Origin: an uncultured Clostridia bacterium
GTDB lineage: Bacteria > Bacillota > Clostridia > Oscillospirales > Acutalibacteraceae
NCBI GenBank assembly: GCA_945926705.1
Contig: CAMEMA010000001.1
Location: 1 to 33,091 of the forward strand
Reading direction: 5' to 3'
DNA length: 33,091 bases
In this document: positions 3,692-10,827 of the stretch, in pieces
Numbering within the stretch: the first letter of the stretch is position 1
Layout: every line of letters begins with the position of its first letter
Translations under genes and position numbers: made by a program
Notes under the pieces: generated by a model
Told to the model about the DNA's origin: nothing
Seen by the model: only the letters and a program-made list of their open reading frames with translations
The model's database searches: none

Positions 3692-6346
3692 TTAAAAATC
3701 TTTTTTGTATACAGCTATCTTTCTATTACCGAGATATTTTTCCAGTTCTGAAATCGCAAGTGGGGTGAGAGATAAACCCCATACTATTGCCCACTGTGAT
3801 AAAGTTAGAGATTCAGTTTTGAAAAATTGAGTTAAGCAAGGTACTGTAGCAGTTATTATTTCCAAAATTATACATAATAATACTGAAAATATTAATTTGG
3901 GATTGCTTAAAAATCCGGTTATAAAAAGAGATTTTTGACTTTGAACATTAAAAGCATGAATAAGTTGGCTGAGCCCTAAAGTAATGAATGCCATTGTCTG
4001 ACCGATTATGGGATGTGAAGGGTCGATATCAAAGAAAGCTCTTCCGATACTGTAAGAGAGTAGTCCTACCGCCGCTATAAAACATCCCTCTATAATTATG
4101 TTGTATCCCAAACCATCCGCAAAGAGATTTTTTTTTGGAGATATCGGAGGACGTTTCATTATATTTTTGTCTACAGGGTCCATTCCAAGTGCTAAAGCGG
4201 GAAATGCATCTGTTACAAGATTTATCCATAAAAGATGTATTGCGAGAAGCGGGGGAGGGACTTTCATTAAAAATCCAAGTAAAACCACCATAACTTCTCC
4301 TATATTTGTGGATATAAGAAAATGGATAGTTTTCTTTATATTTTCAAACATACCTCGACCTTGTCGCACCGCTTCTACAATTGTTGCAAAGTTATCATCG
4401 GTTATTATCATGTCAGAAGCTGATTTTGCTGCGTCGGTTCCTGATTTCCCCATGGCACAGCCTATGTCTGCTGCTTTTAAAGCTGGAGCATCATTTACTC
4501 CATCACCTGTCATAGAGACTATGTGACCGTTTTTTTGAAAAGCTTTTACTATTCTGACTTTATGTTCGGGAGAAACTCTTGCAAATACCGAACACGAATT
4601 TACTTGTAATGCAAGTTCTTCATCTGTCATACAGTTAAGTTCGGCTCCTGTCAGAGCTTTGCTTTTATCGTCGGATATTTTAAGTTCTTTGGCTATGGCT
4701 TTTGCGGTTTCCACATGATCTCCGGTAATCATTACAGGCTTTATTCCTGCGTTTTTACACTCATTAACTGCGGCTTTTGCTTCCGGACGTGGAGGATCGA
4801 TGATTCCAACTAAACCGCAGAAAATCAAATTGTTCTCAATTTTAGTTTCTTCTGGAACAGAATTTTCATCTTTGTATGCAATGGCAATAACTCTTAAAGC
4901 TTTAGAAGCCATTTGGAAATTGTTTTTACTTATTTCTTTTATAATATCATCGGTAATAGGCATTACTTTTTCTCCGCAAAGGAATCTCCCGCACGCTTTT
5001 ATTAAAATTTCCGGGGCACCTTTTGTTACAACTTTAAATGTATTTTTATGAGAAAATACAACGCTCATTAACTTTCTTTTTGAATCAAAAGGTATTTCAA
5101 ATATTTTGTTGTAATCTTTTTTCAAGCTTTTATTTTTGATTCCGCAATTCACTGAAGCCATAAGCAGAGCATTTTCAGTAGGTTCACCCTGGGCAATTGT
5201 TTCGCTGCGGTTTCTCGAAAGTACAGAATTATTGCATAGAGCACCTAATGTAAATAACTCTTTTGCAAAATCACTTTTTAGATTTTCTTCTCCGTTTATG
5301 CTTCTTATTTCTGCAACAGTCATTTTGTTAAGTGTTAAAGTGCCGGTTTTATCTGAACATATCACACTGGCATGACCTAAAGTTTCCACTGCGGGTAAAT
5401 TTCTCACAATTGTATTTCTTTTTGCCATTATGCGGACACCGTTTGCAAGAACTATCGTAACCACAGCAGGAAGTCCTTCCGGTATAGCTGCTACAGCTAA
5501 ACTTATCGAAATCATGAACATTTCAAAAAAGTCGGTATGCTGAAGAATACCTAAAATGAAAACCGCTATACTTACAATCATTATTCCTATCGCAACTATT
5601 TTTCCTGTGACTGAAAGTCTTTGTTGAAGTGGGGTTTGTACTTGTTTTTCGGCGTTAATTAATTTTGAAACTTTTCCGACTTCAGTATTTTCTCCTATTT
5701 CTGTGACAATAGCTTTTGCGTGACCTCTATCTATTATAGAACCACAAAAGAGCATGTTTTTCCTGTCTGCAACTGGAGTATCGTGGTTTAAAATTTCGTT
5801 TTCATCTTTTTCTGTTGCAAAAGATTCTCCTGTCATGGCAGATTCTTCTGCAGCAAGATTTGTGGATTCAATTATTCTTGCATCGGCGCAAACTAAATCT
5901 CCGGTTTTAAGTATTAATATGTCTCCGGGAACGACATCTTGAGAAGCAATTCTTATTATTTTGCCATCTCGCAAAACTTTTGTAAGAGGGGTGGCTAATT
6001 TTTTTAATGATTCTATTTCTTTTTCGGCTCGATTTTCCTGAATTACCCCTATGATTGCATTTATAATTACTATTCCCAATATTATGATTGTATCTATATA
6101 GTCGGATTTATGCCCTATAAACGAAGTGACAAATGAAATGCATGCCGCAATGATTAAAATTATTACCATAAAATCTGAAAATTGAGCAGAGAGTTTTCTT
6201 AAGAAGCTTCTTTTTTCTTCCTTTGATAATATATTTTTTCCATATTTTATTTCTCTTTTTTTAACTTCGGCTCTTGAAAGACCTTTTTCTGAATCGGAAC
6301 CAAATTTTTTAACTGTTTGTTTTGCGGATATAGTGTGCCAGTCCAT
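3692..6346 (-). CDS. Calcium-translocating P-type ATPase (P2A, SERCA/PMCA-like; YloB/LMCA1-like)
   Basis: 884 aa. Motifs: phosphorylation site CSDKTGTLT, M4 motif IPEGLPAVVTIVLA (the Ca-pump type), hinge TGDGVNDAPALK, TGES actuator motif. About 10 TM segments. Confidence 0.85.
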   Translation of the reverse strand: MDWHTISAKQTVKKFGSDSEKGLSRAEVKKREIKYGKNILSKEEKRSFLRKLSAQFSDFMVIILIIAACISFVTSFIGHKSDYIDTIIILGIVIINAIIGVIQENRAEKEIESLKKLATPLTKVLRDGKIIRIASQDVVPGDILILKTGDLVCADARIIESTNLAAEESAMTGESFATEKDENEILNHDTPVADRKNMLFCGSIIDRGHAKAIVTEIGENTEVGKVSKLINAEKQVQTPLQQRLSVTGKIVAIGIMIVSIAVFILGILQHTDFFEMFMISISLAVAAIPEGLPAVVTIVLANGVRIMAKRNTIVRNLPAVETLGHASVICSDKTGTLTLNKMTVAEIRSINGEENLKSDFAKELFTLGALCNNSVLSRNRSETIAQGEPTENALLMASVNCGIKNKSLKKDYNKIFEIPFDSKRKLMSVVFSHKNTFKVVTKGAPEILIKACGRFLCGEKVMPITDDIIKEISKNNFQMASKALRVIAIAYKDENSVPEETKIENNLIFCGLVGIIDPPRPEAKAAVNECKNAGIKPVMITGDHVETAKAIAKELKISDDKSKALTGAELNCMTDEELALQVNSCSVFARVSPEHKVRIVKAFQKNGHIVSMTGDGVNDAPALKAADIGCAMGKSGTDAAKSASDMIITDDNFATIVEAVRQGRGMFENIKKTIHFLISTNIGEVMVVLLGFLMKVPPPLLAIHLLWINLVTDAFPALALGMDPVDKNIMKRPPISPKKNLFADGLGYNIIIEGCFIAAVGLLSYSIGRAFFDIDPSHPIIGQTMAFITLGLSQLIHAFNVQSQKSLFITGFLSNPKLIFSVLLCIILEIITATVPCLTQFFKTESLTLSQWAIVWGLSLTPLAISELEKYLGNRKIAVYKKDF

Positions 6347-6499
6347 AATATTTCACCAAGCGTCCTTTCTGTTTAATAGCTTTTTCTTTACGATAATAAA
6401 ATATATAATTAAAATCGGACATATATTACTTTTGGGTATTTAAAAATATAATGGATTGTGGTATTATATATTTATAAAAATAAGGTTGGAGGAATTATA

Positions 6500-6637
6500 A
6501 TGAAACACATAAAAACCATAAATACTGCCGATTTGAAAAAAAGCGCTTCTTATGGCGGATGCGGTGAGTGTCAAGCTTCCTGTCAGACAGCTTCAAAAGT
6601 TGATAATACAGTAAGTAATCAAAAATGTGAAAAATAG
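6500..6637 (+). CDS. scfA: SCIFF-family radical-SAM-modified peptide precursor (45 aa), atypical four-Cys variant
   Basis: Not in the ORF track because it is under 60 aa. RBS GGAGG lies 7 nt upstream of the ATG. Translation: MKHIKTINTADLKKSASYGGCGECQASCQTASKVDNTVSNQKCEK. The leader MKHIKT.NT..LK, the GGCGECQ.SCQ core, the exact 45-aa length and the adjacent SPASM maturase all fit SCIFF. Confidence 0.85.
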   Translation: MKHIKTINTADLKKSASYGGCGECQASCQTASKVDNTVSNQKCEK

Positions 6638-6665
6638 AAAAAGGAAAATAAAACATTGTTTTGAG

Positions 6666-6698
6666 TTATCTTTCGGTTAATGCCGGAAGATAATTTTT
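6666..6698 (+). terminator. Intrinsic terminator/attenuator between the SCIFF peptide gene and its maturase gene
   Basis: 11-bp stem ttatctttcgg / ccggaagataa (one G-U pair), 6-nt loop, then TTTTT. Confidence 0.6.
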
Positions 6699-6740
6699 AC
6701 TAAAAATAATTTAAAACATTAACGGAAGGCAGAAAATTTA

Positions 6741-8093
6741 ATGATACACAAGTTTAAATGGGACGATATTAATTTTGTTATTGATACAAACAGCGGTGCA
6801 GTACATTCAGTTGACCAGATAACTTACGATATGCTGGATTTTTTAAATGGAAATTTCTTTGATTATACCGAAGACTATTTAGTTAAAAAGTTAGATAAAA
6901 AGTATTCCGAAAATGATATACGAGAAGCATATTCTGAAATTTTGGAACTTTTTAAAAATGAAAAACTTTTTTCGAAAGATTCTTATGAAGATTTGGCAAA
7001 AGAAGAAAAATTGCGTTCGCCGATAAAATCAATATGCCTTAATGTTGCACATGATTGTAATTTGAGATGTTCGTATTGTTTTGCATCCGAAGGAGATTTT
7101 GGATGTGGAAGAGAGCTTATGCCTTTGGAAACTGCAAAAAAATCTGTTGATTTTATAATTGAAAATTCCGGAGGAATAAAAAATCTTGAAATGGATTTTT
7201 TTGGTGGAGAACCTCTTATGAACTGGAACGTTGTAAAAGAAACTGTGAAATATGCGAGGAGTTTGGAAAAGAAGTATAATAAAAATTTCAGATTTACTCT
7301 TACAACAAACGGAATTTTGCTGGACGATGAAAAAATTAATTTTATAAATGAAGAAATATATGATGTAGTTCTTTCGCTTGATGGAAGAAAGGAAATAAAT
7401 GATAAATACAGAATTACTAAGACTAAAAATGGTTCTTATGATATAGTAGTTCCAAAGTTTCAAAAATTAATTTCTCTTCGTGGAAATAAAAGTTATTATG
7501 TTAGAGGAACGTATACAAAAGATAATCTGGATTTTACTAAAGATGTTAAGCATCTTTATAATTTGGGATTTAAAAATATATCTATGGAACCGGTTTTGTG
7601 CGATAAAAAATTTAAATCATCTGTAAATGAAGAAGATATCAGCCGAGTTTTAAATGAGTACGAAAATTTATGCCGAGAATTGATAAAAATGAAAAAATCC
7701 GGTCAAGAGATAAATTTCTTTAATTTCAATATTGATTTTGATAAAGGGCCATGCGTTTTAAAGCGTCTTAAAGGTTGTGGATGCGGAAACGATTACGTTG
7801 CAATTACTCCTAACGGAGATATATTCTCATGCCGCCCTAATATAAACGCAGATGCGTTGAAAATCCGCAATGTAAACGCCGGTACATTTGATGATAATAT
7901 AAAGAAAAAATTTCTCAACACAAGTATTTATAATAAAGAAAAATGTAAAAATTGTTGGGTTAAGTTTTATTGTAGCGGAGGGTGTGCGGCGAAAAATTAT
8001 CAGCATTGCGGAAATATAATGACCCCGTTTTATGTTAACTGTGAAATGCAAAAAAAGAAAATTGAATGCGCAGTAGCTCTTAAGTTTTCATAA
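6741..8093 (+). CDS. scfB: SCIFF radical SAM/SPASM maturase
   Basis: 450 aa. The N-terminus MIHKFKW..INFVIDTNSGAVHSVDQITYDMLDFL is typical of the peptide-binding region. Radical SAM motif CNLRCSYCF. C-terminal SPASM cysteines are present: GCGCGNDYVAITPNGDIFSC and CKNCWVKFYCSGGC. It lies immediately downstream of the SCIFF peptide. Confidence 0.85.
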   Translation: MIHKFKWDDINFVIDTNSGAVHSVDQITYDMLDFLNGNFFDYTEDYLVKKLDKKYSENDIREAYSEILELFKNEKLFSKDSYEDLAKEEKLRSPIKSICLNVAHDCNLRCSYCFASEGDFGCGRELMPLETAKKSVDFIIENSGGIKNLEMDFFGGEPLMNWNVVKETVKYARSLEKKYNKNFRFTLTTNGILLDDEKINFINEEIYDVVLSLDGRKEINDKYRITKTKNGSYDIVVPKFQKLISLRGNKSYYVRGTYTKDNLDFTKDVKHLYNLGFKNISMEPVLCDKKFKSSVNEEDISRVLNEYENLCRELIKMKKSGQEINFFNFNIDFDKGPCVLKRLKGCGCGNDYVAITPNGDIFSCRPNINADALKIRNVNAGTFDDNIKKKFLNTSIYNKEKCKNCWVKFYCSGGCAAKNYQHCGNIMTPFYVNCEMQKKKIECAVALKFS

Positions 8094-8478: not shown

Positions 8479-10827
8479 TTATTTTTTTATATATTTTTCA
8501 AAATTTATTTTAGATAAGCTGTCATAGATTATTTTAGAAATTAGGGTAATAACTACTAAAATTGATACATTCACAAAATTGAAAGGTTCTAATTTGAGAA
8601 GTAGATTGAAATAAGAAACTCCTATGAAAAGAAGTGCAATTACGCTATAAAATAAAATTTTTCTTAAATTGTTAAACGGAACGGATATATTGTAAATAAG
8701 CATAATTCCTATTATTCCCGTTGAAACTACTGTTAAAGTCGAATATCTTTCCATAGGTATATCAAAAAGCATATATATTCCTACGCACACCATAATACAA
8801 CATATAACAGCAAGGGCTGCAGGTATTGATTTTTTTACGATATTTGTGAACAGGTTGCCTTTTATTTTTTCACGGTTAGGCTCGAGTGCCAGCACGAACG
8901 ACGGTATTCCGATTGTCACCGCACTTATAAGGGTCATTTGGATTGGAATGAACGGGTATGGTGCAGGAATCATAAAGAAAAGTATTGCCAATAAAAAAGA
9001 ATATATTGTCTTAGTTAAAAACAACGAAGCAGAACGCTGAATATTATTGATTGCTTTACGTCCCTCAGCAACGGCTTTAGGCATCGAAGCGAAATCTGAA
9101 TTAAGCAAAACTAAATGAGAGACATTTCTTGCAATATCACTTCCGCCGGCCATTGCAACGCTGCAATCCGCCTCTTTCATTGCGAGAACATCATTAACTC
9201 CGTCGCCGACCATAGCAACGGTATGACCATCTTCTTTTAGAGATTTTATTATAAGTTGCTTTTGATGAGGAGTGACTCTTCCGAAAACAGTATATTTTGT
9301 TGCAGCATTTCTAACATCTTCATCTGTCTCTAAAGTTGTGGCATCTACAAAAGAATGTGCATTTTTTAAATTTACTCTTTCCGCTATTTTCGAAACCGTT
9401 AAAGGATTATCCCCCGAAATTACTTTTATGTCAACACCTTGTTTTTTAAAGAAATTCAAAGTTTTTTCGGCATTAAATCTTATTCTGTCTTTTATGAGAA
9501 TAAGCGCCATTGCTTGAGTTGCCTTCGGTACTTTTGAATTTTCGAAAGAGTATTGTGAATGAGCCAATACCAAAACGCGGAAGTTTTCTGAATAAGTTTT
9601 TATCTGTTCTGAAAATTTTTCTGAGTTGTTCGGAAATATAAATTCAGATGCACCCAATAAAAATGAACCTTCCGTTTCGAACTCTGCTCCCGACCATTTT
9701 CTTTCCGAAGAGAAAGGAATAATTTGTTTATAAGATGTAATGGATTTGTCAGCCGGAAATATTCTTTTTACTGCTTTAAAAGTTTCGTTGTTGTCGTTCA
9801 GAACGCTGGTGAGCATGACTAAAGCTTTTCTTATATCTTTTTCAGAAAATCCGTTTTGTGGTATAACTTTTTCAACATCGAAAGTTCCTTCGGTTATTGT
9901 TCCTGTTTTATCAAGGCACATGGTGTCAACACGTGCAAGGGTTTCTATACAATAAATGTCTTGAACAAGGACTTTATGTTTTGCAAGTTTGAAAACTCCT
10001 ACTGCAAGGACTGAACTTGTGAGCAAAACCAGTCCTTCCGGTATCATTCCGGTCAGTGCGGCGGTAGTGTTAACTATTGCCGACGCAAAATCGTATTTGG
10101 AAGTTGTAAATTGTCTGTAAAATAGGAGTGCCCCTATGGGAATTATCGCAATTGAAATAATTTTTATTATTTTATTAAGAGTTGTCATTATTTCTGACTT
10201 GGTTTTTTTTATATATTTAGAGCCTTTTAATAATTTGGAAGCATAATTATCTTTCCCGACATGTTCAACTTTTGCGGTGCATTTTCCGCTCACAAGATAA
10301 CTGCCCGAAAGCAGCATGTCTCCGGGTTTTTTGAGAATTAAATCAGGTTCGCCTGTAAGCAACGATTCATTAACCTCACAGCTTCCTTCCAATATTATAG
10401 AATCTGCAATTACTTGGTTTCCGCTTTCGAAAAATATGATATCGTCAAGGACTATTTTTTCTACTTTTGTTTTGCCTTTCTTGCCTTCGCGTATGACTTT
10501 CGCACTGTTAGCAGCTATTAAATTGAGCTTGTCCACGGTCCTTTTTGCTCGAATTTCCTGAGCTATTCCTATTATGGAATTGCATATTACAACACCCATA
10601 AACATAAGATTTCGATAAGACCCAACGCACAAAATGGCAATTGCCAAAGCTATATTTATTAAATTGAAAAGAGTTAAAAGATTATCTTTTATTATATCTA
10701 AATTAGACTTGGTCGAAACCGATTTATCAATGTTAGAAAGATCATCTTTTATTCTTTCTTTGACTTCCTGTTTTGTAAGTCCGAAATTACATTTTGGGTT
10801 GTATCTTTTAATTTCAGAAGACTCCAT
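8479..10827 (-). CDS. Cation-translocating P-type ATPase (E1-E2, HAD-IC type), ion specificity not assignable
   Basis: 782 aa. Motifs CLDKTGTITEG, TGEPD, MIPEGLVLLTSSVLAVG and VGDGVNDVLAMKEADCSVAM. The M4 motif differs from the Ca-pump signature of the first ATPase. Confidence 0.8.
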   Translation of the reverse strand: MESSEIKRYNPKCNFGLTKQEVKERIKDDLSNIDKSVSTKSNLDIIKDNLLTLFNLINIALAIAILCVGSYRNLMFMGVVICNSIIGIAQEIRAKRTVDKLNLIAANSAKVIREGKKGKTKVEKIVLDDIIFFESGNQVIADSIILEGSCEVNESLLTGEPDLILKKPGDMLLSGSYLVSGKCTAKVEHVGKDNYASKLLKGSKYIKKTKSEIMTTLNKIIKIISIAIIPIGALLFYRQFTTSKYDFASAIVNTTAALTGMIPEGLVLLTSSVLAVGVFKLAKHKVLVQDIYCIETLARVDTMCLDKTGTITEGTFDVEKVIPQNGFSEKDIRKALVMLTSVLNDNNETFKAVKRIFPADKSITSYKQIIPFSSERKWSGAEFETEGSFLLGASEFIFPNNSEKFSEQIKTYSENFRVLVLAHSQYSFENSKVPKATQAMALILIKDRIRFNAEKTLNFFKKQGVDIKVISGDNPLTVSKIAERVNLKNAHSFVDATTLETDEDVRNAATKYTVFGRVTPHQKQLIIKSLKEDGHTVAMVGDGVNDVLAMKEADCSVAMAGGSDIARNVSHLVLLNSDFASMPKAVAEGRKAINNIQRSASLFLTKTIYSFLLAILFFMIPAPYPFIPIQMTLISAVTIGIPSFVLALEPNREKIKGNLFTNIVKKSIPAALAVICCIMVCVGIYMLFDIPMERYSTLTVVSTGIIGIMLIYNISVPFNNLRKILFYSVIALLFIGVSYFNLLLKLEPFNFVNVSILVVITLISKIIYDSLSKINFEKYIKK

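What the first reader, a model, noticed from the sequence alone, without database searches (positions are those of the whole stretch)
6500..8093. SCIFF peptide with only four of its six defining cysteines, next to an apparently intact maturase
**Seen.** An unannotated 45-codon ORF with a strong RBS encodes MKHIKTINTADLKKSASYGGCGECQASCQTASKVDNTVSNQKCEK.

- Its length, leader and GGCGECQ.SCQ core are those of SCIFF (six cysteines in forty-five residues).
- A SPASM radical-SAM gene follows directly, with CNLRCSYCF and the CX2CX5CX3C motif intact.
- Cysteines occur only at positions 21, 24, 28 and 43. The positions where the family has Cys32 and Cys36 are Ser (TCA) and Asn (AAT). Thr37 is retained.

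**Established.** The SCIFF family is named for six cysteines that, as I recall, are essentially invariant, and its biological role is still unknown. As I recall the in-vitro work on the homologous maturases Tte1186 and CteB, the single thioether they install runs from Cys32 to Thr37.

**Inference.** This natural variant lacks the reported donor cysteine. Either the locus is decaying, or the maturase installs a different cross-link or none, which would bear on what SCIFF actually does.
Basis: partly seen in the sequence, partly recalled or inferred. Interest (0 to 1): 0.8.

Follow-up and report, generated by a model that had tools for sequence, protein, structure and literature searches.

The report
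Conserved four-cysteine SCIFF peptide subfamily
The four-cysteine SCIFF peptide is real and belongs to a strongly conserved gut-bacterial subfamily that lacks the cysteine (and one threonine) shown experimentally to form the family's cross-link, so it is a natural test of what SCIFF peptides need, although this contig's own maturase carries an odd private lesion.

Summary
**Observation:** confirmed. scfA (6500-6637) encodes the stated 45-aa peptide, with Cys only at 21, 24, 28 and 43. scfB (6741-8093) follows.

**Not a sequencing error and not clade-level decay:**
- About 33 peptide clusters and 11 verified scfA-scfB loci share the core CGECQ[AV]SCQTASKVDNTV.NQ.CE.
- Core pN is 0.004 against pS 0.72.
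- Their ScfBs form one clade. dN/dS is 0.04-0.15 and all ten Fe-S ligand Cys are kept.
- Six otherwise near-invariant ScfB residues are replaced clade-wide: R144I, N206D, V284L, H326N, F365L, N416K.

**Family-wide:** Cys32 and Cys36 are the "soft" cysteines. They are lost singly or together in several independent lineages that keep an intact maturase. Cys21, 24, 28 and 43 were never lost. Such forms are a minority: 0 of 70 in a metagenome sample.

**This clade:** it also lost Thr34, the acceptor in the E. coli work, and gained Thr30. My leading but untested model is a cross-link moved one register upstream, Cys28 to Thr30.

this contig's ScfB has a private 12-codon patch (7833-7868) directly after an auxiliary-cluster ligand. 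It destroys residues that are 96-100% conserved in homologues. It may be a real inactivation or an assembly artefact.

**Verdict:** a new variant of a known kind, of moderate interest.

The parts
6439..6467 (+). Promoter-like site (TTTAAA, 17 nt spacer, TG-TATTAT) upstream of scfA, in the 153-bp divergent intergenic region shared with the Ca-type ATPase gene
   Evidence: Consensus scan only. The number of promoter-like sites in the region is not above the shuffled expectation, so this is weak evidence.
6488..6492 (+). Ribosome-binding site GGAGG, 7 nt before the scfA ATG
   Evidence: Read directly from the sequence.
6500..6637 (+). scfA: 45-aa SCIFF precursor. Leader is residues 1-19 or 20. 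Core is C21-G-E-C24-Q-A-S-C28-Q-T30-A-S32-K-V34-D35-N36-T37-V-S-N40-Q-K-C43-E-K.
   Evidence: TIGR03973 scores 65.2 against a cut-off of 50. Across 9 loci the core has pN 0.004 and pS 0.72.
6664..6698 (+). Terminator- or attenuator-like hairpin (14-bp stem, 4-nt loop) running into a U tract, between scfA and scfB
   Evidence: Centroid energy -17.2 kcal/mol; the -20.1 kcal/mol minimum-free-energy fold extends the stem with flanking pairs; z -3.5 for the 107-nt intergenic stretch. It is not picked up by the simple terminator scan. It is positionally conserved, with compensatory stem changes, in variant and canonical loci.
6741..8093 (+). scfB: radical SAM/SPASM SCIFF maturase, 450 aa, with an N-terminal peptide-recognition (RRE) region, a radical SAM barrel and a SPASM domain
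   Evidence: TIGR03974 scores 617.7 against 425. It aligns full length with CteB. All 10 cluster ligands are present. Outside the patch, dN/dS is 0.04-0.07 against L001 and L002.
7056..7079 (+). Radical SAM cluster motif C106-NLR-C110-SY-C113, equivalent to CteB C104/C108/C111
   Evidence: CteB ligand numbering is taken from PMC10177961.
7833..7868 (+). Private aberrant patch in scfB, codons 365-376 (RPNINADALKIR). It lies immediately after the auxiliary-cluster-1 ligand Cys364 (CteB C362). It replaces H363, Q364, V366, G367 and G374 (CteB numbering).
   Evidence: Sixteen of 36 nt differ from L004, the fetched locus nearest to it, with no frameshift. All 120 listed homologues have CHQ[LFVM][VI]..., nearly all followed by G, and every close relative shown continues F.MGN. 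The patch holds the only deviations from positions that are at least 95% conserved. The clustering has P about 3e-9 and costs 26 bits. The exact protein is known from one contig only.
7944..7985 (+). SPASM motif C402-x2-C405-x5-C411-x3-C415, equivalent to CteB C400/C403/C409 (auxiliary cluster 2) and C413 (auxiliary cluster 1)
3692..6346 (-). Context only: a divergently transcribed Ca2+-type P-type ATPase. It is syntenic with scfAB in most loci of the four-Cys clade and in none of the canonical loci fetched.
   Evidence: TIGR01517 scores 535.9 against 507. The DKTGT motif scan and gene tables support the synteny.

Best explanation
**What it is.** The window carries a two-gene scfA-scfB cassette. 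It belongs to a monophyletic, selectively maintained four-cysteine subfamily of SCIFF found in uncultured gut Clostridia (MAGs labelled Ruminococcaceae, Eubacteriales or Clostridia).

**Shown by homology.**
- scfA is translated from a strong ribosome-binding site.
- A hairpin after scfA probably lets peptide transcripts exceed maturase transcripts.
- ScfB is a CteB/Tte1186-type radical SAM/SPASM enzyme with all three Fe-S clusters ligated as in CteB.

**Inferred.**
- ScfB binds the conserved leader through its N-terminal peptide-recognition (RRE) region.
- It holds a core cysteine thiolate on the open iron of auxiliary cluster 1.
- It abstracts a side-chain hydrogen with 5'-deoxyadenosyl radical and closes a thioether.
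- Cys32, Cys36 and Thr34 are gone, so the donor and acceptor must differ from those of CteA and Tte1186a.

**Leading candidate ring.** Cys28 to Thr30 (S-C-gamma).
- The clade-specific S30T change recreates a Cys-x-Thr motif, like the reported Cys32-Lys-Thr34, one CX3 register upstream.
- The enzyme has replaced six otherwise near-invariant residues clade-wide. This fits a re-tuned substrate pocket.
- Alternative rings are Cys43-Asn40 (an NxxC motif), Cys43-Thr37 and Cys28-Asp35.

**This contig.** ScfB additionally carries a private 12-codon lesion beside the auxiliary-cluster-1 ligand. It may have recently inactivated the enzyme, or it may be an assembly artefact.

**Sub-probabilities.**

| Claim | Probability |
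|---|---|
| Functional conserved subfamily | about 0.9 |
| A cross-link different from Cys32-Thr34/37 is installed | about 0.55 |
| Specifically Cys28-Thr30 | about 0.3 |
For: - **Clade.** About 33 peptide clusters carry an invariant CQTASKVDNTV-type core with variable leaders. Eleven scfA-scfB pairs were verified by sequence.
- **Selection on the core.** Core pS is 0.72 and pN 0.004, against leader pN 0.12. Residues S32, N36, T30, V34 and D35 are each encoded by 2-4 synonymous codons across species.
- **Selection on ScfB.** Its ScfBs form one NJ split of 69 sequences. dN/dS is 0.04-0.15. All ligand Cys are kept.
- **Re-tuned enzyme.** R144I, N206D, V284L, H326N, F365L and N416K are changed in both L001 (90% identical) and the deep-branching L067 (62% identical to the window ScfB); all but F365L are also majority changes across the 68 clade sequences, at positions conserved in 97% or more of 88 canonical ScfBs. 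ScfBs that partner other Cys-depleted SCIFFs keep the canonical residues.
- **Chemistry from the literature.** The donor Cys/Sec binds auxiliary cluster 1 (PMC10177961). The link is Cys32-Thr37 in vitro and Cys32-Thr34 S-C-gamma in E. coli (PMC8326336 and PMC8172795).
- **Thr30 and Thr34.** Thr34 is invariant in 230 canonical clusters. Thr30 is present only in this clade.
- **Operon layout.** The intergenic hairpin is conserved with compensatory changes.
Against: - There is no chemical evidence for any cross-link in this clade.
- The S30T / C32S / T34V co-change is a single evolutionary event, so the covariation has n = 1.
- Other four-Cys lineages (P0241/L065, P0086/L066) have intact maturases but no Cys-x-Thr motif. 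The register-shift idea is therefore not a general rule.
- I could not map the clade-specific ScfB substitutions onto 3-D coordinates. Their position in the substrate pocket is inferred only from sequence proximity to ligands.
- The window's own ScfB has lost H363, Q364, G367 and G374 next to the cluster that binds the donor Cys. This particular copy may therefore be inactive.
- A second, canonical scfA elsewhere in these genomes was not excluded.
Confidence: 0.6

Rival explanations
1. The thioether reported for CteA and Tte1186a is not what matters for the family. The essential part of a SCIFF is the invariant Cys21/Cys24/Cys28/Cys43 scaffold (CX2CX3C...C), for example as a metal or Fe-S ligand set or as the site of still-unseen modifications. 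Cys32 and Cys36 are accessory. In this clade ScfB would either modify a universal residue or act as a chaperone, and no 'replacement' ring exists.
For: - Cys21, 24, 28 and 43, with Q29, K33, Q41 and E44, are invariant in the 37-sequence alignment that mixes clade and canonical peptides; the four Cys were never substituted in any of the 78 distinct cores read, apart from 3 truncation or duplication artefacts.
- Cys32 alone, Cys36 alone, or both are lost in independent lineages with intact ScfB.
- Only one of six Cys is used in all published assays, and the reviews call the active form an open question.
- Cys21 ligates auxiliary cluster 1 in the CteB crystal structure.
Against: - The window clade's ScfB shows replacement of near-invariant residues that the other Cys-depleted lineages do not show. 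This suggests the enzyme-core interface did change.
- The whole core from residue 29 to 41, not only the four Cys, is frozen in the clade. That is expected for an enzyme substrate or a shaped product.
- No metal-binding evidence exists.
Confidence: 0.25
2. Simple decay in this strain: the cassette in this contig is recently non-functional. The ScfB lesion at 7833-7868 is a real mutation cluster that disables the auxiliary cluster 1 environment, and scfA merely has not yet degraded.
For: - The patch removes H363, Q364, G367 and G374, which are 99-100% conserved in 156 homologues (V366, 96% conserved, is also replaced). It sits next to the ligand of the cluster that binds the donor Cys.
- It costs 26 bits against the family HMM, and the clustering has P about 3e-9.
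- Decay does happen in the family. L028 pairs a frameshifted scfB with a degenerate four-Cys core.
Against: - The patch is in frame, with no stop codon.
- The rest of the gene has dN/dS 0.04-0.07.
- scfA is identical to that of three other species.
- The patch is seen on a single MAG contig only, so an assembly or consensus artefact is equally possible.
- This rival explains the maturase oddity, not the four-Cys state, which is clade-wide and selected.
Confidence: 0.15
3. Sequencing or assembly error at codons 32 and 36: the peptide is really a six-Cys SCIFF.
For: None found.
Against: - Ser32 and Asn36 recur in independent assemblies from NCBI, ENA, JGI and Logan.
- They are encoded by different synonymous codons: TCA/TCC/TCT and AAC/AAT.
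Confidence: 0.01

Closest known systems
SCIFF / thermocellin system: CteA-CteB of Clostridium thermocellum and Tte1186a-Tte1186 of Caldanaerobacter (TIGR03973 + TIGR03974; PDB 5WGG)
   Same: - The peptide has the same 45-aa length and the same leader (MKHIKT.N..LKK).
- It keeps the CGECQ.SC start of the core and the NQ.CE end.
- The adjacent maturase aligns full length with CteB (E 1.6e-147) and has identical cluster ligands.
- The scfA-hairpin-scfB layout is the same.
   Different: - The core lacks Cys32 (the donor), Cys36 and Thr34 (the acceptor in E. coli). It has Thr30, Val34, Asp35 and Asn36 instead.
- ScfB has R144I, N206D, V284L, H326N, F365L and N416K at positions that are near-invariant elsewhere.
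- The cassette lies next to a Ca-type P-type ATPase.
- The window copy also has the 365-376 lesion.
Other Cys-depleted SCIFFs found here: five-Cys forms such as P0507 (C32S), P0478 (C36S); four-Cys forms P0241/P0418 (S32, S36) and P0086 (Q32, N36)
   Same: They lack the same 'soft' cysteines, pass the SCIFF HMM cut-off, and have an intact adjacent ScfB.
   Different: - They arose independently.
- They keep Ser30 and Thr34.
- Their ScfBs keep the canonical near-invariant residues.
- Only the window clade shows the Thr34-to-Thr30 switch together with a re-tuned enzyme.
Freyrasin PapA-PapB (NF047865) and QhpD: Cys-to-Asp/Glu beta/gamma thioethers at CX3D motifs
   Same: The maturases are homologous (PapB model 255 bits, QhpD model 260 bits, both below cut-off). 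The clade core has gained an Asp (D35).
   Different: There is no CX3D motif: Asp35 is 7 residues from Cys28 and 8 from Cys43. The enzyme is ScfB-type by score.
NxxcA-NxxcB of Streptococcus: Cys to Asn C-beta thioether in an NxxC motif
   Same: N40-Q-K-C43 is an NxxC motif. It is retained in this clade and in nearly all SCIFFs.
   Different: The maturase is not NxxcB-type. No Asn-Cys link has been reported for any SCIFF. This is a resemblance only, recalled from the review read.

Membership tests
SCIFF precursor (TIGR03973 / PF13165) | Profile score above the curated cut-off | tested here: met
   65.2 bits against cut-off 50 (NCBIfam) and 65.2 against 27 (Pfam). A canonical peptide scores 85.9.
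SCIFF precursor (TIGR03973 / PF13165) | About 45 residues, with a conserved MKHIKT... leader and a GG-CGEC junction | tested here: met
   45 aa; MKHIKTINTADLKKSASYGGCGEC.
SCIFF precursor (TIGR03973 / PF13165) | Six cysteines, at positions 21, 24, 28, 32, 36 and 43 | tested here: not met
   Only 21, 24, 28 and 43 are Cys; Ser32 and Asn36 replace the others. The same holds clade-wide.
SCIFF precursor (TIGR03973 / PF13165) | Encoded immediately upstream of a TIGR03974 maturase | tested here: met
   scfB starts 103 nt downstream. The same arrangement is seen in 11 clade loci.
ScfB maturase (TIGR03974) | Profile score above cut-off, and not the 'not_ScfB' exception model | tested here: met
   617.7 against 425. 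NF040492 scores 553.9, below its cut-off of 855.
ScfB maturase (TIGR03974) | CX3CX2C radical SAM motif plus the seven SPASM cysteines (CteB C344/362/413 and C400/403/409/432) | tested here: met
   All ten are present in the alignment to CteB. Ligand list is from PMC10177961.
ScfB maturase (TIGR03974) | Conserved HQ[FL]VG...G stretch after the auxiliary-cluster-1 ligand Cys362 | tested here: not met
   The window has RPNIN...R. In 156 homologues H363 and G374 are 100% conserved, Q364 and G367 99%, and V366 96%. The feature is met in all other clade members.
Ranthipeptide (radical non-alpha thioether RiPP) | A Cys S to C-beta or C-gamma thioether installed by the radical SAM enzyme | not testable with these tools
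   Needs MS/MS or NMR of the modified peptide. The published donor (Cys32) and the published E. coli acceptor (Thr34) are absent.
Freyrasin-type (PapA/PapB) | Repeated CX3D motifs in the core, and a maturase above the PapB cut-off | tested here: not met
   There is no CX3D in the core. NF047865 scores 255, below its cut-off of 340.

The most novel reading that the evidence does not exclude
The thioether mapped in vitro and in E. coli (Cys32-Thr37 or Cys32-Thr34) is not the conserved chemistry of SCIFF peptides. The indispensable unit would be the Cys21/24/28/43 scaffold. The window clade would be a lineage in which peptide and maturase co-evolved to install a ring at a new site (Cys28-Thr30 or one involving Cys43). 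That would give a natural, minimal SCIFF in which to find what the family does, possibly linked to the syntenic Ca-type ATPase.
Probability: 0.3. Interest if true: 0.75.

Novelty: new variant of a known kind. Interest (0 to 1): 0.55.

Why it matters
SCIFF is one of the most widespread ribosomal peptide systems in Clostridia. Its function is unknown and only one of its six cysteines has an assigned role. Published assignments of the ring disagree: Thr37 in vitro, Thr34 in E. coli.

**What natural variation says.**
- Four cysteines (21, 24, 28, 43) are never lost.
- The experimentally used donor Cys32 and its neighbour Cys36 are dispensable in several lineages.
- Thr34, not Thr37, is the conserved threonine.

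**What this clade offers.**
- It is the cleanest case. Cys32, Thr34 and Cys36 have all been replaced, the core is frozen by selection, and the enzyme is visibly re-tuned.
- It gives a direct experiment (co-expression plus MS/MS of a four-Cys pair) that would show whether ScfB enzymes can move their ring.
- It also gives a set of six enzyme positions to test as specificity determinants.

**Annotation.** These peptides are auto-named 'six-cysteine' although they have four or five cysteines.

Tried and rejected
- **'Cys32 and Cys36 are always lost together'.** I first inferred this from the first 270 peptides. I rejected it after a third homologue search found many five-Cys forms lacking only Cys32 or only Cys36.
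- **P0423 as a Cys32-less form.** I briefly took this very abundant peptide, which includes a cultured isolate, for a Cys32-less form. Its sequence is canonical. The truly abundant Cys32-less forms are P0507, P0432, P0441 and P0425.
- **Frameshift, inversion or complement as the origin of the scfB patch.** Rejected. The alignment is in frame with no indel, and by eye the patch is not the reverse complement or complement of the ancestral stretch.
- **Ectopic donor for the patch.** No match of 12 nt or more was found in the window or in the 75 loci fetched up to that point. A quasi-palindrome template switch is not supported, because the ancestral stretch is not a quasi-palindrome.
- **Convergent ScfB changes in independent Cys-depleted lineages.** Only H326 changes recur (N in L065, S in the decaying L028). 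The others keep canonical residues. No general rule emerged.
- **Simple terminator scan.** It did not call the intergenic hairpin. Folding and comparative data did.
- **Primary papers.** Hudson 2019, Grove 2017 and Bruender 2016 are not held. Their results are cited through two reviews and PMC10177961.
- **Literature search for the core motif.** It returned nothing.
- **3-D mapping of the clade-specific ScfB residues.** Not attempted, because the structure tools return no coordinates.
Full report
**1.
- An ORF at 6500-6637 (+), preceded by GGAGG at 6488-6492, encodes MKHIKTINTADLKKSASYGGCGECQASCQTASKVDNTVSNQKCEK.
- Cysteines are at 21, 24, 28 and 43 only. Codon 32 is TCA and codon 36 is AAT.
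- The peptide passes the curated SCIFF models: TIGR03973 65.2 bits against 50, and PF13165 65.2 against 27.
- The next gene (6741-8093, 450 aa) passes the SCIFF-maturase model TIGR03974 (617.7 against 425). It does not reach the 'not_ScfB' exception model (553.9 against 855).
- It aligns over its whole length with the crystallised CteB (5WGG, E 1.6e-147).
- The window is a whole 33,091-bp MAG contig with 31.6% G+C.

**2. The four-Cys state is a clade character under selection.**
- A homologue search returned about 33 clusters (90% identity) whose leaders differ. Their core is essentially CGECQ[AV]SCQTASKVDNTV.NQ.CE.
- Eleven scfA-scfB pairs were read directly: the window, L001-3, L005-9, L067/68 and L069.
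- Across nine of these, synonymous sites of the core are saturated (pS 0.72) while pN is 0.004. The leader has pN 0.12.
- Ser32 is encoded by TCA, TCC or TCT. Asn36 is AAC or AAT. Thr30 uses all four codons.
- This excludes sequencing error. It also excludes decay as the reason for the missing cysteines.
- All clade members found are uncultured gut MAGs labelled Ruminococcaceae, Eubacteriales or Clostridia.

**3. The maturase co-evolved with the peptide.**
- The 69 ScfBs that are 62-94% identical to the window's form one split in an NJ tree.
- They keep all ten Fe-S ligand cysteines.
- They have dN/dS of 0.04-0.15.
- Six positions are replaced in both L001 and the deep-branching L067: R144I, N206D, V284L, H326N, F365L and N416K. 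All but F365L are also majority changes across the 68 clade sequences, where 88 canonical ScfBs are 97-100% conserved.
- Later additions in part of the clade are E349D, R438K, A309C and P361S (CteB numbering).
- N416 lies three residues after the auxiliary-cluster-1 ligand C413. F365 lies three residues after ligand C362.
- I could not map these positions in 3-D.

**4. This contig's own scfB has a private lesion.**
- Codons 365-376 (7833-7868) read RPNINADALKIR. The 94%-identical P0121 reads HQLVGEDEFKMG, and all 120 listed homologues read HQ[LFVM][VI] at the first four of these positions, nearly all followed by G; every close relative shown continues F.MGN.
- The change is 16 substitutions in 36 nt relative to L004, in frame.
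- It accounts for 10 of the 27 amino-acid differences from P0121 (P about 3e-9). It costs 26 bits against a family HMM.
- It contains the only deviations of this protein from positions that are at least 95% conserved: H363R, Q364P, V366I, G367N and G374R.
- It directly follows Cys364 (CteB C362), a ligand of auxiliary cluster 1. Selenium EXAFS shows that this cluster binds the cross-linking cysteine (PMC10177961).
- The exact protein is on record from this one contig only. No cluster-mate has the patch.
- No donor sequence was found.
- A real mutation cluster and an assembly artefact cannot be told apart without reads.
- 'Apparently intact maturase' is therefore true for the clade and doubtful for this copy.

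**5. Family-wide survey.**
- Across 378 SCIFF-like peptides read there are 78 distinct cores.

| Cysteine pattern | Distinct cores | Notes |
|---|---|---|
| All six Cys | 38 | Canonical |
| Lacking only Cys32 | 13 | For example CQSASKTSC[SAG]VANQKC. P0507 is indexed in 460 blocks, on contigs up to 727 kb |
| Lacking only Cys36 | 5 | |
| Lacking both | 19 | 13 belong to the window clade |

- The independent double-loss lineages are P0241/P0418 (S32, S36), P0086 (Q32, N36), P0465, P0468, P0487 and P0419 (= L028).
- Cys21, 24, 28 and 43 are never substituted. The three apparent exceptions are truncations or an internal duplication.
- L065 and L066 (four-Cys) and L072, L073 and L075 (five-Cys) have intact ScfBs with all ligands and canonical near-invariant residues.
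- L028 has a frameshifted scfB and a degenerate core, so it is a true case of decay.
- My sampling was steered towards variants.
  - In the best 80 metagenome scfB loci, all 70 readable peptides have six Cys.
  - The window clade is 62 of at least 7,973 ScfB clusters, under 1%.
- Cys-depleted SCIFFs are therefore a recurrent minority. All of them pass TIGR03973 (61-77 bits) and are named 'six-cysteine' by annotation pipelines.

**6. What is known about the ring.**
- In vitro, Tte1186 and CteB link Cys32 to Thr37.
- In E. coli co-expression, CteB links Cys32 to Thr34 through C-gamma. The discrepancy is unresolved.
- Only one of the six Cys is used (reviews PMC8326336 and PMC8172795).
- In my survey Thr34 is invariant in 230 canonical clusters, whereas position 37 is Gly in 27 of them. 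In Cys32-less forms it is Ser, Ala or Gly. This favours Thr34 as the physiological acceptor.
- The window clade lacks Cys32, Thr34 and Cys36, so both partners of the E. coli-defined ring are gone.
- It uniquely has Thr30 where all others have Ser30.
- No paper in the searchable library mentions this core.

**7. Most likely mechanism.**
- *Shown:* the family membership of both genes, the ligand set, the selection on both genes and the operon layout.
- *Inferred:* the RRE region of ScfB binds the leader. A core Cys thiolate binds the open iron of auxiliary cluster 1. The 5'-deoxyadenosyl radical abstracts a side-chain hydrogen, and a thioether forms.
- With Cys32 absent, the donor must be Cys28 or Cys43 (or Cys21 or Cys24).
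- The S30T change recreates a Cys-x-Thr motif, as in Cys32-Lys-Thr34, one four-residue register upstream. Cys28-Thr30 is therefore my leading candidate, at about 0.3.
- Cys43-Asn40 (NxxC), Cys43-Thr37 and Cys28-Asp35 are alternatives.
- The main rival is that the four invariant Cys are what matters and no replacement ring exists (0.25).
- For this contig specifically, recent inactivation of ScfB is possible (0.15).

**8. Anatomy and context.**
- A weak promoter-like site lies at 6439-6467.
- A hairpin with 14 bp in the stem at 6664-6695 (centroid -17.2 kcal/mol; the -20.1 kcal/mol minimum-free-energy fold extends it; z -3.5 for the 107-nt intergenic stretch) runs into a U tract between scfA and scfB. 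It is positionally conserved, with compensatory changes, in both variant and canonical loci. This fits attenuation that lets precursor exceed enzyme.
- A Ca-type P-type ATPase (3692-6346, minus strand) is divergently adjacent in the window and in nine fetched clade loci (L001-3, L005, L007-9, L067/68), and absent from L006 and L069. It is adjacent in none of the 59 other fetched loci, nearly all canonical.
- This may be lineage synteny only.

**9. Verdict.**
- The 'decay' reading is rejected for the four-Cys state.
- The 'different cross-link or none' reading is open and now sharpened.
- This is a new variant of a known kind: an uncharacterised, selectively maintained SCIFF subfamily with a re-tuned maturase.
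- Interest is moderate (0.55). It is not unique in lacking Cys32, but it is the clearest natural test of what SCIFF chemistry requires.

Noticed in passing
window 7833-7868 (scfB codons 365-376): A private in-frame cluster of 16 substitutions in 36 nt. It replaces the universally conserved HQ[LF]VG...G stretch next to the auxiliary-cluster-1 ligand. It is absent from all homologues, including the 94%-identical ones, and no donor sequence was found.
   Followed up: yes
window 3692-6346 (-) and 8479-10827 (-); L001-3, L005, L007-9, L067/68: A Ca2+-type P-type ATPase is divergently adjacent to scfA in the window and in nine fetched four-Cys clade loci (absent from L006 and L069). It is adjacent in none of the 59 other loci fetched, nearly all of them canonical. 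A second P-type ATPase lies downstream of scfB in the window, and probably in L001 and L004, where a second or downstream DKTGT motif was found.
   Followed up: partly
L028:312-1826: Another four-Cys SCIFF (CKSSCQSATKTEPDTANQKCEK). Its scfB is split by a frameshift into a 95-aa ORF and a 366-aa ORF. This is a genuine example of decay and contrasts with the window clade.
   Followed up: partly
L069:2501-2737 (P0007); L065:3001-3279 (P0241); P0416, P0417: These are SCIFF precursors with duplicated modules. P0007 has two variant cores in one 78-aa peptide. P0241, P0416 and P0417 are tandem fusions of two complete leader-plus-core units.
   Followed up: no
window 6664-6698; intergenic regions of L001-L009, L011, L016, L019, L025, L056, L066: A hairpin with a U tract between scfA and scfB is conserved in position, with compensatory stem changes, across variant and canonical SCIFF operons. 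It is probably an attenuator that sets the peptide-to-enzyme ratio.
   Followed up: partly
SCIFF peptides P0001-P0120 and P0241-P0527: In canonical six-Cys SCIFFs Thr34 is invariant. Position 37, the in-vitro acceptor, is Gly in about 12% of clusters. In Cys32-less forms it is Ser, Ala or Gly. This favours Thr34 as the physiological acceptor.
   Followed up: partly
window scfB residue 348 (GCGCG; CteB Ser346), nt 7782-7784: Most ScfBs of the four-Cys clade have an extra cysteine two residues after the auxiliary-cluster-1 ligand C344. Deep-branching clade members have Phe, Leu or Ile there, and canonical enzymes have Ser or Ala.
   Followed up: no
P0011, P0014, P0021, P0023, P0029, P0031, P0040, P0043: Some clade peptides end in CEC or CECCK. 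This adds one or two C-terminal cysteines next to Cys43.
   Followed up: no
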